In this document: positions 18,784-34,319 of the stretch, piece by piece | Numbering within the stretch: position 1 is the first letter of the stretch | Layout of the letters: each line of letters begins with the position of its first letter | Source: the human T2T-CHM13v2.0 reference genome, Homo sapiens | Strand: one strand, 5' to 3' | Assembly: GCF_009914755.1 (NCBI RefSeq) | Contig: NC_060944.1 | Length of the DNA stretch: 64,000 nt | The notes under the pieces: generated by a model | What the model saw: the letters and a program-made list of their open reading frames with translations, nothing else | Databases searched by the model: none | Told to the model about the DNA's origin: nothing | Made by a program: the position numbers and the translations under genes

Positions 18784-20026
18784 CTGGGAAAAAAATTAAC
18801 AGGTATACATACTAAGTATCTAAACCAGTCTAAAAAATAGCCCAAGTGCCAATGTACCACCTGAGATGTTAGTGGCAATAATCTACCTCTACACCTTCCC
18901 TCTCCCAGAGTATTTTTAAATCTCCAGCTTCGCAGGGATGAGCAATGCTGATAGCTTTGTTGAGAGCTTTTTTTAGAATTCCTTATATGAATCAAGTGAT
19001 TACTCAAGAGTGAAAACAGAAGGACTTTTTTTTCCAGTAATTCAGTAAATAAAGTTAACTTTAAAAATTAAATATTGTGTATCAGAGATAACTTGAAATA
19101 TACAGTCACTGCTGGGTAAGTCAAGTTGAGCGCTGCTAAAATACAACTGGGCAATGAAGTAGTAAGAAACATAACCCTACCCTGCAAATCCTGCTTCTGG
19201 TAATCTACCTTGGAGATCCACTTAGTCAGATATAAAGATTCTTTGCAATCTTACAACAGAGTAGAAGTTACTTTAGTATCTGAAATGAGCAATTATGATG
19301 TATAGATTACACATTTAAAACTAGGTGAAATAATAACTGATGGGTGAAACTACTAGGCCTATTTTTGTATATACTCAAATAATCGTAAGTGAGCTCTTAA
19401 TTCCATGAAAGTAGAAAATAGGCTATTAAAAAAGTATGTTTTTAAAAACTCCCAAGATTCAGAAAACATGCCAAAGGGCAAATTAACTAAAATAAAATTG
19501 CATGATGGGGGGAAAAATTTTTTTTACTCTTTTACTTTCTGATGACATTTCAGCCTTAGAGGGCATACAATCCTATCTAATTTTATTTTGCCTGATTTAA
19601 TACATTTCACATAAAATTAAAACATATTTGTTCAGGGCAATGCAGACAAAGCATGTTTCATTCCCAAAGGTTATTCTGCTTACCATTTTGTCCACATATA
19701 CATATAACGCTTCACGGCTCAAAGGCTGCAGGGATACTTGCAATTCAATAAAAACTCCCAAATCTTCTTTGCCCCAGAAACAGCCCTTTCTGCATGTTAT
19801 GTCCCACATCAATGACCTATAATCCCCCAAACTATTACCTGTCTACTTCACACAACCCATACAGTGCTGTCAGATACACAAGCTTTATGGATACAATGCC
19901 AGAAAGGCATGTCATTTATAAAAACAAGTCTGATAAATTCTTATTCTGCTCCTTTGTATAAAGAAACTTTTTAAACAGACTTCTGGTCCTGCACTGCTCT
20001 GAGAAGCTGAGCAACTCTCTTCCTAC

Positions 20027-21533: not shown

Positions 21534-22636
21534 CTAGAAGGAAGAAAAAAAGAACCAGACATTTCATGAAATATACTATCCCTGCAGCCTTTTACATTTA
21601 TCAATATAAAAATATATTGCTTAGAACATGGCATATAAACGTGAGTAAAGTTTAACCTCTACAGATCAGGGAATTACAAATTTACGATACTATTTCTTAA
21701 CCAAGGCTGGGAAAAATCAAGGGCTGGCAGAAAATGTCTACAGAAGAATCACTTAACAACCACCAGTAAAACTGGCACCCTAAGACACAGCAATTTTACA
21801 CTAGTACAATGGTTCTACCAGGTGGAACATGGCCACTTAGCCTTGGATACCTATCTGTGTGTGAATGAGGTTTTTTTTTCTCGATTGGTTTCAGACTGGG
21901 AGGAAATCCTGGTATCTGGTAGGCATTGGCCAAGGATGCCAATGCCAAATATCCCATAATGCATGGATACAGGACAGTCCCATACACCTTAAACTGGACC
22001 AAGTCTGAGTTTCCTAATTTCTGATGATGCCCTCTCTACTTAGCACCTGTATTCTGGGCTCCCTGGAGTGGCAAAGCCAGATACCAGACAGTAATTGTAA
22101 GGGTAACTCAGTTACAAAGGAATGAGAAGGCCCGAGAAGTAGTAAAGTAAATCATACCTCTAACGGTAACGGAAACGTTATTTTGTATTCTTGTCTTTGT
22201 GCTAACGCCTTGAAATCCAGTATGTAAATAAAATCTAAAGTTTGGTTCCTTAGTTGTGCCAGCTAGGTTGCATGTCAAGTGCTTCTCTATCACCTGTAGT
22301 TGGTGACCAAACTGGACAGTGTAGTTCTGAGAGTGGGATAAAATACTGATCTTGTACTTTATTTTAGAAATTAACTGAGTAATCTCCCTCCTTACAGAAA
22401 AGGAGAAAATGAAGCCAAGTGTGGAAAGGTTCAAGTTGCTTCTCCTGGGACAGAACAAGGTGCTCTGGGAAATAAGTGAAAATTGAATAAGTAGATGAAA
22501 ATTACCAAAATCTGAAGAACACTTACATGTCTTAAAAGTTAACCATTTGTTTCACAAGTATCTCTTTCAAAGAAACAAAAGGTCACCTATTCCCGATGAA
22601 GTAAAAAATTTTCTCCAACAGCCAAAGGTCACTTAC

Positions 22637-25131: not shown

Positions 25132-25305
<174 letters not shown>

Positions 25306-25817
25306 CTAGTTGGTGCCTCATTCTACTCTTGCTGGTCCACAGGAGACAACCACTCCACTCCTGTGGGGCTATTTAAAAGTCAACTCCTGTTTTTTCTTAA
25401 CCTTCCTTAACTCTTCTGGACATTTAAAATGAGGTGTCTTCCTGAGAGTTGCACATTCACTTTGATGGCAATCATTTGTTCAGTTTATCCATTATAGACA
25501 ATTGTTCAGAGCACAACAGTGTCTATACTGCTTCAGTGTTCGCCTAAAACTAGTACAACGAATGCTAAGCACCAAAGATGAGCCATCAAGATTATAAAGT
25601 GTTCAGTATTCCAAAGGAATTTTTTCCTAATCCCAAAGGATAATCAAGGACTCTAATTTTGAATGAAAGACATATCTAAATATAAGCTTCGGTATTAATT
25701 TTGTTTAATGATTAAGCAATCATCATTTGGAGAGCTTCTTCAGTCTGCCTGGCAGGACAAAACGCGTGGAAATCTCCTTTAAAATCAGTTAAGTCTGTTC
25801 CTGCCGCCAAGAAATAA

Positions 25818-27213
<1,396 letters not shown>

Positions 27214-27577
27214 CCAAATTCTATTTTTGTAAGTCTGAATTTACCCCCCACCCCCAACTTATGACAAAAAAGAAAAATAAATTTTAAAAAAACCTCTTAG
27301 CTGTAACTTACTATGGTTCTAAAAATTGTCCCTGGCTTCCTTCCTTTTCACTCCAGTGAATGCTGATTTTACCTCCTTTGATCTGGTAAGCTCAGGCAGA
27401 GAATTATGTCACCAGTCTTTTTACACTACCTCCGGAATAACTGAAGTGTGCTATTCAAGCCGCCCAGGCGTTAAGAAAAAACCACATGGGAAAGGTCTTT
27501 CCCAATTTAGTAAATGCTGAAAAAAAGCAAGCTACAGAGACAAACTTCCCTTGGATGCAAATTAAAAACAAAGCTGG

Positions 27578-28600
<1,023 letters not shown>

Positions 28601-33278: not shown

Positions 33279-33623
<345 letters not shown>

Positions 33624-33830
33624 CAACTCTGCTTTTACAGGTATTGGCTCTCATTCCCTAGCCATTGGTTCTCCCCTTCCTGTAATTCAGGCCTGCAATA
33701 TAATTTCTTAGTCCCCCAAGGAAAACAGAACTAAAGACTTCTAACAGAAGATCTCAGTCTACTAACATAGCTAATAGCTATTAAAGCTACTCAGGCATCG
33801 GCTTAATAAAAAACTAAAGGGCTGCAGCAA

Positions 33831-34067
33831 GTGATCAGATTTTCACCACTCATCTTTGTGAGATGGGTCTCAGAGGGCCCCGTCCCTGCTGACACCAACC
33901 ATTCTTACCGGTAGCCTGCCAACACACAAGCAGTTCACAGTAGAACACTGCAGACTGCAGGGCATTTTCTGGCTACATAGCCTCAAGTTCCTAGAACAGG
34001 AACTGAGGCTTGGAAGAAGGTCAGTGCAGCGCACTCAGCGAATGGATAAACTGAATCATCATTTCAC
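33831..34067 (-). ncRNA. SNORD17: Box C/D snoRNA SNORD17 (HBI-43), guide for 28S rRNA 2'-O-methylation (U3797, old numbering)
   Basis: C box ATGATGA 34056-34062; D box CTGA 33835-33838; GTGA/TCAC terminal stem; D' guide GTTTATCCATTCG-CTGA complementary to 28S UGAAUGGAUGAAC with two G-U pairs; 237 nt; same strand as the SNX5 host. Confidence 0.95.
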
Positions 34068-34319
34068 AAGGCTGCAAGCCCATGTACTAATGGAATCAAC
34101 ATGGAACCAGAGTTAAATTACTGCCTTAAATATCTAATGCATGTCAAGAAATCCATCTAATTACTAAGTACCGAAATTATAATACTTTCAAATGAATTCA
34201 CAAAGCAAAACAGCTGAACTAATGATCTGTAAGGATCTCCTGGCAGATAAATCCTACTGGGAATCAATACACCACTGCTACCAAGAAAGCAGGTCCAACA
34301 AATGAATAAAAGAAACCCA

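What the first reader, a model, noticed from the sequence alone, without database searches (positions are those of the whole stretch)
25479..25493. Perfect 15-nt target for the SNORD17 guide inside its own host pre-mRNA
Seen: plus 25479-25493 TTCAGTTTATCCATT is the exact reverse complement of plus 34041-34055. The SNX5 pre-mRNA therefore reads AAUGGAUAAACUGAA about 225-240 nt upstream of the coding exon 4 acceptor. This is fully Watson-Crick complementary to the SNORD17 guide between box C and D' (UUCAGUUUAUCCAUU), a longer match than the 13-bp rRNA duplex, which has two G-U pairs. The D'+5 rule would point at the U at 25491. My rough estimate of a chance match for this specific 15-mer in the ~27-kb transcript is about 1e-4. 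Established: some intronic C/D snoRNAs base-pair with their host pre-mRNA and alter its splicing (SNORD86/NOP56, SNORD2/EIF4A2). Inference: a snoRNA-host feedback circuit. It could act in trans (binding or 2'-O-methylating the intron) or in cis, where pairing loops out coding exons 2+3 (216 nt, in frame, PX domain) and competes with snoRNP assembly.
Basis: partly seen in the sequence, partly recalled or inferred. Interest (0 to 1): 0.8.

Follow-up and report, generated by a model that had tools for sequence, protein, structure and literature searches.

The report
SNORD17 guide matches SNX5 intron 3
A 15-base stretch in an intron of the human SNX5 gene is perfectly complementary to the targeting sequence of SNORD17, the small nucleolar RNA made from another intron of that gene; the match is real and unlikely by chance, but nothing yet shows that it does anything.

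Summary
SNX5 intron 3 reads AAUGGAUAAACUGAA (window 25493-25479, minus strand). It is a perfect Watson-Crick partner of SNORD17 nt 13-27, which lie between box C and box D'. It pairs in the same register as the 28S rRNA target, so the predicted methylated base is U25491.

Three separate estimates put the local chance at about 1-5e-4. I reckon roughly 0.1 such hits genome-wide across all snoRNA guides. The site is single-copy, accessible, and not a decayed SNORD17 copy. Its duplex (-19.6 kcal/mol) is at least as stable as the rRNA duplex (-18.0).

Circumstantial support:
- A chr12 SNX5 retrocopy has lost every intron except intron 3. It carries 13 of the 15 bases, and the other two would form G·U pairs.
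- A published circRNA, circSNX5, consists of exons 2-3, the exons the pairing would bracket.

Against:
- circSNX5 formation is already explained by flanking inverted Alus.
- Mouse Snord17 knockout leaves Snx5 levels unchanged.
- The one interaction table I could read lists no duplex at this site.
- Cross-species conservation could not be tested here.

Verdict: a real, biochemically competent pseudo-target. About 50% that it arose by chance and is not selected, and about 35-40% that it is some form of snoRNA-to-host regulation.

The parts
25479..25493 (-). Intron-3 site. The pre-mRNA reads AAUGGAUAAACUGAA, a perfect 15-bp partner of SNORD17 nt 13-27.
   Evidence: Duplex -19.6 kcal/mol. Probability of being unpaired is 0.023, the 84th percentile of 15-mers in the region. 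Not in a repeat by self-BLAST. Single-copy apart from the chr12 retrocopy.
25491..25491 (-). U predicted to be 2'-O-methylated. It pairs with the fifth base upstream of box D'.
   Evidence: Read from the sequence. Same register as the U in the 28S target AAU*GGAU. Methylation itself was not tested.
33831..34067 (-). SNORD17, a 237-nt box C/D snoRNA in SNX5 intron 1.
   Evidence: Rfam RF00567, 255.4 bits. Only copy found in the genome.
34039..34055 (-). D' guide (antisense element), snoRNA nt 13-29, UUCAGUUUAUCCAUUCG.
   Evidence: Pairs with 28S over nt 17-29 (13 bp, 2 G·U) and with intron 3 over nt 13-27.
34056..34062 (-). Box C, AUGAUGA (nt 6-12).
34035..34038 (-). Box D', CUGA (nt 30-33).
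25255..26501 (-). SNX5 intron 3 (1,247 nt), which holds the site. It is the only intron retained in the chr12 retrocopy. If retained, the frame stops 9 codons into the intron.
   Evidence: Hub table.
26502..28162 (-). Exon 2 (28058-28162), intron 2 and exon 3 (26502-26612). This is the segment bracketed by the guide-site pair. Exons 2-3 are reported as circSNX5.
   Evidence: Hub table; PMC11330969 section 17. I matched the exon numbering to the window only through the Alu layout, not through coordinates.
25852..26127 (.). Alu in intron 3, inverted relative to the Alu at 28300-28571.
   Evidence: 79.7% over 276 nt. Consistent with the 'external Alus' required for circSNX5 (PMC11330969 section 19).
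28300..28571 (.). Alu in intron 1 just upstream of exon 2, partner of the intron-3 Alu.

Best explanation
The intron-3 15-mer is a real, single-copy mimic of the 28S rRNA target of SNORD17. It most likely arose by neutral drift in the primate lineage rather than by selection.

Shown: it shares the core AAUGGAU-R-AAC with the rRNA site and pairs in the same register. It is as stable as the rRNA duplex and is accessible.

Inferred: an assembled SNORD17 snoRNP that meets nascent or retained intron 3 would dock through its D' guide and place fibrillarin on U25491. This is most plausible at the SNX5 transcription site, where the snoRNP is itself released from intron 1. Occupancy is probably low, and the consequence is at most a small delay in intron 3 removal. 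On this reading it is a pseudo-target, not an evolved feedback circuit.
For: - Exact 15-bp Watson-Crick match confined to the guide.
- Same register as the 28S site.
- Duplex energy -19.6 against -18.0 kcal/mol for 28S.
- Opening cost of only 2.3 kcal/mol.
- The match outcompetes the snoRNA's own internal pairing of the guide in a co-fold (ddG -10.8).
- One 15-nt inverted pair in a 27-kb transcript is not unusual in itself: two exist among 22,188 non-repeat 15-mers.
- My arithmetic over several hundred snoRNA guides gives about 0.1 chance hits genome-wide.
- The Rfam consensus has c at snoRNA nt 14 where human has U, so the full 15-bp match is probably not shared widely.
- Parent and retrocopy differ by 7 of 100 bases around the site against about 9% for the whole intron, so there is no local sign of constraint.
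- Mouse Snord17 knockout does not change Snx5 mRNA or protein (PMC12955892, passages).
- SNORD17's many mRNA chimeras map to nt 58-71, not the guide (bioRxiv 10.1101/037259, passages).
Against: - The local probability is low (1-5e-4). With a prior of about 1% for real snoRNA-host interactions in other introns (38 of 140 interactions in PMC10324135 section 5), a functional origin is about as likely as chance.
- The two flanking processing oddities sit exactly where the pairing would act: intron 3 retention in a retrocopy and circSNX5 from exons 2-3.
- The two bases that differ in the retrocopy are both G opposite guide U, so pairing is kept (-18.4 kcal/mol).
- The mouse result says little if the site is primate-specific, and it measured total levels, not isoforms.
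Confidence: 0.5

Rival explanations
1. Evolved snoRNA-to-host feedback acting in trans, or near-cis at the locus. The SNORD17 snoRNP binds intron 3 through its D' guide and slows or blocks its removal. Intron-3-retaining transcripts stop 9 codons into the intron and are lost to nuclear detention or NMD. High snoRNA output would therefore lower SNX5 mRNA output.
For: - Low chance probability.
- Perfect duplex in a methylation-competent register.
- Accessible site.
- A retrocopy in which all other introns are spliced and only intron 3 remains, showing that this intron is or was the slow one.
- Retention gives an early stop.
- SNORD17 is abundant relative to its host (688 against 8.1 mean TPM in the PMC10324135 supplement).
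- SNORD17 contacts many mRNAs.
- The precedent class exists (PMC10324135; PMC12645875).
Against: - No duplex reads for this site in the table I could read. That sheet lists same-intron pairs only.
- The site is 225-239 nt from the acceptor, away from the branch point and polypyrimidine tract that known cases mask.
- Mouse knockout shows no Snx5 change.
- One retrocopy is an anecdote, and intron 3 also carries an Alu.
Confidence: 0.25
2. Cis clamp. While intron 1 is still unspliced, the snoRNP on SNORD17 pairs with intron 3 of the same transcript. This forms an outer clamp around the inverted Alu pair and favours back-splicing of exons 2-3 (circSNX5) or skipping of exons 2-3.
For: - Geometry: the guide (34041-34055) and the site (25479-25493) bracket the Alu pair 28300-28571 / 25852-26127, which brackets exons 2-3.
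- circSNX5 consists of exons 2-3.
- The authors call its biogenesis noncanonical and dependent on intronic sequence.
Against: - circSNX5 forms from a minigene and requires the external Alus. A 276-bp Alu duplex dwarfs a 15-bp one.
- As far as the text shows, the construct has no SNORD17. I could not see its map, because the figures and the PDF supplement are not held.
- Guide and site are 8,548 nt apart, and intron 1 may be spliced before intron 3 is made.
- RefSeq lists no transcript that skips exons 2-3 (hub table).
Confidence: 0.12
3. The site is targeted not by the snoRNP but by a SNORD17-derived small RNA. Fragments of nt 2-29, which contain the whole guide, have been reported.
For: Small RNAs from HBI-43/SNORD17 at nt 207-233 (major) and nt 2-29 (minor) are listed in PMC3025573, Table 2.
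Against: The reporter activity listed for HBI-43 in that table was O/-/n, with no '+' in any of the three cell lines. An intronic nuclear target is not a typical miRNA-like substrate.
Confidence: 0.03
4. The site is a remnant of an inverted SNORD17 copy, or part of a repeat family that happens to carry the 15-mer.
For: The same 15-mer does occur in a repeat family elsewhere: 7 of the 30 genomic copies inspected share a common flank.
Against: - A local alignment of the site +/-300 nt to SNORD17 +/-100 nt returns only the 15-mer.
- Flank scores are no better than shuffles: left 16 against a mean of 16.2, with 121 of 200 shuffles as high; right 20 against 17.6, with 33 of 200 as high.
- The adjacent 30 nt are 7/30 and 5/30 identical (all).
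- The site's flanks differ from the repeat family.
- The 401-nt surround has only one other genomic match, the retrocopy.
- No second SNORD17 copy exists.
Confidence: 0.02

Closest known systems
SNORD2 / EIF4A2 and the other snoRNA-host transcript pairs of Bergeron et al. 2023 (PMC10324135)
   Same: An intron-encoded snoRNA has sequence complementarity to its own host pre-mRNA. In that paper's data, 95 snoRNA/protein-coding host pairs interact, and 38 of 140 interactions lie in another intron or exon.
   Different: Those cases rest on psoralen-crosslink reads, and most (102 of 140) lie within the snoRNA's own intron, next to the snoRNA. Here there are no reads, the site is two introns and 8.5 kb downstream, and the pairing uses exactly the rRNA-methylation guide as a perfect 15-mer. 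The one SNORD17-SNX5 duplex in their table is the snoRNA's terminal region within intron 1.
SNORD86 / NOP56 cis-acting snoRNA (Lykke-Andersen 2018, cited in PMC12645875; the paper itself was not read)
   Same: A snoRNA inside a host pre-mRNA influences host splicing as a feedback device.
   Different: As I recall, that mechanism depends on snoRNP assembly on the snoRNA fold changing splice-site choice nearby, not on guide pairing to a distant intron. The host there encodes a snoRNP core protein, which gives the loop its logic, whereas SNX5 has no known link to snoRNPs.
SNORD115 (HBII-52) / serotonin receptor 2C pre-mRNA (Kishore and Stamm 2006, seen only as a reference; details recalled)
   Same: A long, perfect complementarity between a C/D guide element and a pre-mRNA, proposed to alter splicing.
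   Different: SNORD115 is an orphan snoRNA whose target overlaps an alternative exon in an unrelated gene. SNORD17 has a validated rRNA target, and its site is deep in an intron of its own host.
Inverted-Alu-driven circRNA biogenesis at SNX5 (circSNX5, PMC11330969)
   Same: Complementary intronic sequences flank exons 2-3. The guide-site pair has the same topology as the Alu pair and lies just outside it.
   Different: The Alu duplex is about 276 bp and was shown by deletion to be needed. The 15-bp pair is untested and would need a snoRNP or other help to matter.
The canonical SNORD17 target in 28S rRNA
   Same: Same guide, same register, same local sequence AAUGGAU-R-AAC, and the same U opposite the fifth base upstream of D'. 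Methylation of the mouse equivalent (28S-U3474) depends on Snord17 (PMC12955892).
   Different: The rRNA duplex uses guide nt 17-29 (13 bp, 2 G·U). The intron duplex uses nt 13-27 (15 bp, all Watson-Crick) and leaves the two bases next to D' unpaired.

Membership tests
Box C/D snoRNA methylation target (guide-target duplex rules) | Uninterrupted duplex of about 10 bp or more with the antisense element immediately upstream of box D or D' | tested here: met
   15 contiguous Watson-Crick pairs with nt 13-27. The duplex starts at the third base upstream of D'.
Box C/D snoRNA methylation target (guide-target duplex rules) | A defined target nucleotide opposite the fifth base upstream of D/D' | tested here: met
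   A25 of the snoRNA pairs with U25491. The 28S site uses the same register.
Box C/D snoRNA methylation target (guide-target duplex rules) | The guide belongs to an active C/D' unit | not testable with these tools
   Literature only: mouse Snord17 knockout lowers 28S-U3474 methylation, and a guide mutant fails to rescue it (PMC12955892, passages).
Box C/D snoRNA methylation target (guide-target duplex rules) | 2'-O-methylation detected at the target | not testable with these tools
   Needs RiboMeth-seq or RTL-P on nascent or chromatin RNA.
snoRNA-host transcript regulatory interaction (Bergeron 2023 type) | In-cell RNA-RNA duplex reads joining the snoRNA to the host site | tested here: inconclusive
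   In the 2 supplementary files held, SNORD17 appears once, as an intron-1 duplex with 3 PARIS reads. That sheet covers same-intron pairs only. The PMC12645875 and PMC9226514 supplements held (1 file each) do not name SNORD17.
snoRNA-host transcript regulatory interaction (Bergeron 2023 type) | Target lies in the snoRNA's own intron, adjacent to it | tested here: not met
   The snoRNA is in intron 1 and the site is in intron 3, 8,548 nt downstream (hub table).
snoRNA-host transcript regulatory interaction (Bergeron 2023 type) | Evolutionary conservation of the target | not testable with these tools
   No other mammalian genome is held. The only evidence is a retrocopy of about 91% identity that carries 13 of 15 bases.
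snoRNA-host transcript regulatory interaction (Bergeron 2023 type) | Host splicing changes when the pairing is blocked | not testable with these tools
   Experiment needed. Mouse knockout shows no change in total Snx5.
Antisense snoRNA retrocopy acting as a target (described in the snoGloBe paper, PMC9226514) | Similarity to the snoRNA extends beyond the guide into the flanks | tested here: not met
   Only the 15-mer aligns, and the flanks are at shuffle level.
Flanking-complementarity-driven circRNA | Inverted complementary sequences in the introns flanking the circularised exons | tested here: met
   The guide in intron 1 and the site in intron 3 flank exons 2-3, as does the Alu pair. circSNX5 = exons 2-3.
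Flanking-complementarity-driven circRNA | The complementary pair is required for back-splicing | not tested
   Shown in print for the external Alus only.

The most novel reading that the evidence does not exclude
The rRNA-methylation guide of SNORD17 has a second job as a sensor on its own host. By pairing with intron 3 it would control how the region around exons 2-3 is processed: linear splicing, intron 3 retention with an early stop, or back-splicing into circSNX5. The amount of snoRNP made from intron 1 would then set the fate of the same gene's transcripts. The pair may have been maintained through a compensatory change, from guide C14 paired with target G to guide U14 paired with target A. 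The Rfam consensus and the retrocopy hint at this but cannot establish it.
Probability: 0.15. Interest if true: 0.8.

Novelty: new member of a known kind. Interest (0 to 1): 0.45.

Why it matters
If the pairing is used, it would be a clean case of a canonical rRNA guide with a second target in its own host pre-mRNA. The predicted modification site is exact (U25491). The published circRNA of exons 2-3 and intron 3 retention would serve as readouts. It would link snoRNA output to SNX5 isoform choice and make snoRNA-host autoregulation testable with one point mutation and its compensatory partner.

If it is not used, it is a useful calibration. A perfect 15-nt guide match inside the host gene can arise without function, which bears on how snoRNA target predictions in introns are read.

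Tried and rejected
- **Decayed inverted SNORD17 copy:** rejected. The flanks do not align and the genome holds no other SNORD17 copy.
- **Repeat-derived site:** rejected as far as I could test. The 401-nt surround has one other match, the retrocopy. Self-BLAST does not mask the site. Of the 37 genomic occurrences I fetched 30. Seven of those (L014, L016, L018, L019, L020, L028, L029) share a common flank, which I recall as a LINE-1 3' region but did not test. The window site does not share that flank. No RepeatMasker annotation was available, so an ancient repeat cannot be excluded.
- **28S pseudogene fragment:** rejected by eye. Outside AAUGGAU-R-AAC the flanks of the 28S site and the intron site differ.
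- **Polarising the AA/GG difference between parent and retrocopy:** not possible, because there is no third copy or outgroup.
- **Finding the mouse guide sequence in print:** failed. The main text and supplement of PMC12955892 hold no guide sequence, and the figure that shows it is not held.
- **Exon coordinates or primers for circSNX5:** not in the held xlsx, and the PDF supplement cannot be read.
- **A second 10-nt complement:** snoRNA nt 210-219 against 25573-25582, 80 nt upstream of the site. I considered it as a bipartite contact and set it aside. It overlaps what I read as box C' (AGAUGA, nt 213-218). Five such 10-mers occur in the transcript, about as many as my arithmetic expects.
- **Print search:** searches found no paper describing this complementarity. 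Of the 10 papers that hold both SNORD17 and SNX5, I read passages from three (PMC12955892, PMC3025573, PMC4394429) and saw the other seven only in the listing.

Full report
**1. What is in the sequence**

SNORD17 lies at window 33831-34067 on the minus strand (Rfam RF00567, 255.4 bits, E 7.2e-65). It sits in SNX5 intron 1, 5,431 nt from the donor and 5,669 nt from the acceptor (hub table).

Its 5' end reads GUGAA-AUGAUGA(box C)-UUCAGUUUAUCCAUUCG-CUGA(D'). The plus strand at 25479-25493 carries the same 15 letters as snoRNA nt 13-27. SNX5 intron 3 therefore reads AAUGGAUAAACUGAA and can form 15 uninterrupted Watson-Crick pairs with the guide.

The base on each side mismatches, so the match is exactly 15. 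It is the longest antisense match between the whole 237-nt snoRNA and the 27,179-nt pre-mRNA. The next longest is 11 nt, followed by five 10-mers.

- The site is 225-239 nt upstream of the exon 4 acceptor.
- Exons 2+3 total 216 nt, in frame.
- Exon 3 encodes the start of the PX domain (PF00787, E 1.3e-5).
- The base opposite the fifth position upstream of D' is U25491.

**2. Relation to the rRNA target**

I took a 28S gene from the same genome and scanned it with the guide.

The intron site shares AAUGGAU-R-AAC with it and pairs in the same register, so the same U would be presented to fibrillarin. The rRNA duplex uses guide nt 17-29, and the intron duplex uses nt 13-27.

RNAduplex energies are -19.6 kcal/mol for the intron and -18.0 for 28S. 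Across 2,714 windows of the pre-mRNA the mean is -5.8 (sd 2.5) and the next best is -15.9.

The 15-mer is unpaired with probability 0.023, the 84th percentile locally, at an opening cost of 2.3 kcal/mol. In the naked snoRNA the guide is mostly paired to the snoRNA's own 3' part (mean unpaired probability 0.24), but co-folding with the intron segment wins by 10.8 kcal/mol.

**3. Is it more than chance?**

Three routes agree on about 1-5e-4 for this snoRNA and gene:
- Shuffles of the window.
- The genome count of the 15-mer: 37 copies, with 11 for the reversed control.
- A census of perfect inverted 15-mers in the non-repeat part of the transcript: 6 of 22,188 15-mers have a partner, which is two pairs, one of them this one.

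One such inverted pair per 27 kb is therefore ordinary. The unusual part is that one arm is exactly the guide. My own arithmetic over several hundred guide elements in the genome gives about 0.05-0.4 chance hits. The finding is suggestive but not compelling.

**4. What it is not**

- **Not a decayed inverted SNORD17 copy.** Aligning the site +/-300 nt to the snoRNA +/-100 nt returns only the 15-mer, and the flanks score like shuffles.
- **No other SNORD17 copy** exists in the genome.
- **Not in a high-copy repeat.** The 401-nt surround matches only itself and one chr12 locus. Seven of the 30 other copies of the 15-mer that I inspected belong to one repeat family with a shared flank that the window site lacks.

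**5. The chr12 locus**

G000:C12 around 101,028,360-101,031,700 is a processed SNX5 retrocopy. It holds the spliced 5'-UTR form of exon 1, then exons 2-13 joined, then a poly(A) remnant. Intron 3 is retained in full, including its Alu. Intron identity is 1,127 of 1,235 aligned bases. Assuming usual primate neutral rates (recalled), that puts the copy at roughly 30-40 Myr.

At the site it reads AAUGGAUAAACUGGG: 13 of 15 bases are identical, and the two changes are G opposite guide U, so pairing is kept (-18.4 kcal/mol). This shows three things:
- At least 13 of the 15 bases are that old.
- The two differences cannot be polarised without an outgroup.
- An SNX5 mRNA retaining only intron 3 once existed in the germ line. 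Retention would stop translation 9 codons into the intron.

The local divergence around the site (7 per 100) is no lower than that of the whole intron.

**6. Literature**

- **Bergeron et al. 2023 (PMC10324135; section 5, passages, supplement file 1 part 1).** They report 140 snoRNA-host interactions in protein-coding hosts, 38 of them outside the snoRNA's own intron. SNORD17-SNX5 appears once, as a 3-read PARIS duplex joining the 5' region and upstream flank to the 3' end and downstream flank within intron 1. The sheet covers same-intron pairs only, so it is silent on intron 3.
- **No mention of SNORD17** in PMC12645875, PMC12713598, PMC9226514, PMC11028025 or PMC13736004.
- **Gumienny et al. 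preprint (passages).** SNORD17 is among the three snoRNAs with the most mRNA chimeras, but these use nt 58-71 rather than the antisense boxes.
- **Brameier et al. (PMC3025573, table).** They list small RNAs from nt 2-29.
- **Mouse knockout (PMC12955892, passages).** Snord17 knockout leaves Snx5 mRNA and protein unchanged and lowers 28S-U3474 methylation.
- **Chen et al. 2024 (PMC11330969; abstract, sections 17 and 19).** They describe circSNX5, an exonic circRNA of SNX5 exons 2-3. Its formation needs external inverted Alus and unspliced intronic sequence and is repressed by STAU1.

In the window, two internal Alus lie in intron 2. An inverted pair, 25852-26127 and 28300-28571 (79.7% over 276 nt), flanks exons 2-3. 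This fits that paper's layout. The guide-site pair lies just outside this Alu pair.

**7. Reading**

Shown:
- The match, its register, stability and accessibility.
- Its single-copy nature and its partial age.
- The two processing peculiarities around it.

Inferred:
- An assembled SNORD17 snoRNP would bind the site and could methylate U25491.

Unknown:
- Whether it does so in cells, and whether that matters.

I put about 50% on a chance-born pseudo-target with no selected role. I put about 25% on trans, or locus-proximal, feedback through delayed intron 3 removal. I put about 12% on a cis clamp aiding exon 2-3 circularisation or skipping. The small remainder goes to a snoRNA-derived small RNA or a repeat origin.

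The target emerges 8.5 kb after the guide, long after assembly or internal folding of the snoRNA.

**8. A lead I could not close**

The Rfam consensus has c at snoRNA nt 14 where human has U. The retrocopy has G at the position that pairs with nt 14. If the ancestral pair was C-G and the human pair is U-A, that is a compensatory change. If not, the perfect 15-mer is recent. Primate alignments would settle this in minutes.

Noticed in passing
G000:C12 about 101,028,360-101,031,700 (L031 8363-10000 and L032 1-1701): An SNX5 processed retrocopy in which every intron is removed except intron 3, which is retained in full with its Alu. It derives from the 5'-UTR-spliced transcript form, ends in a poly(A) remnant, and has a 44-nt A-rich insertion inside exon 3.
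   Followed up: yes
window 25573-25582 (minus): A 10-nt perfect complement to SNORD17 nt 210-219, 80 nt upstream of the 15-mer in the same intron. It overlaps what I read as box C' (AGAUGA). By my arithmetic, the chance of one of the five 10-mer hits landing this close is about 0.04.
   Followed up: partly
window 19721-19736 and 21577-21592: The only other perfect inverted repeat of 15 nt or more (a 16-mer) in the non-repeat part of the SNX5 transcript. Its two arms lie in two different introns.
   Followed up: no
window 33816-33844 and 34029-34103 (converted from hg38 by my offset): A published PARIS duplex (3 reads, PMC10324135 supplement) joins the 5' part of SNORD17 plus 36 nt upstream to its 3' end plus 15 nt downstream. 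It has an 'extension ratio' of 4.6, suggesting an extended precursor stem. Rfam's consensus structure and the MFE fold also pair the D' guide with nt 217-236.
   Followed up: partly
L014, L016, L018, L019, L020, L028, L029 (position 1501-1515 of each): Seven of 30 inspected genomic copies of the 15-mer share the flank ...tttttaattttgatgaag-15mer-ttt..., so they belong to a repeat family. I recall this as a LINE-1 3' region but did not test it. This inflates the genome count of the 15-mer about threefold over the reversed control.
   Followed up: partly
window 33325-33628 and 28274-28571: The Alu about 200 nt downstream of SNORD17 in the pre-mRNA is inverted relative to the Alu just upstream of exon 2 (81% over 306 nt). 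Several other inverted Alu pairs cross intron 1.
   Followed up: no
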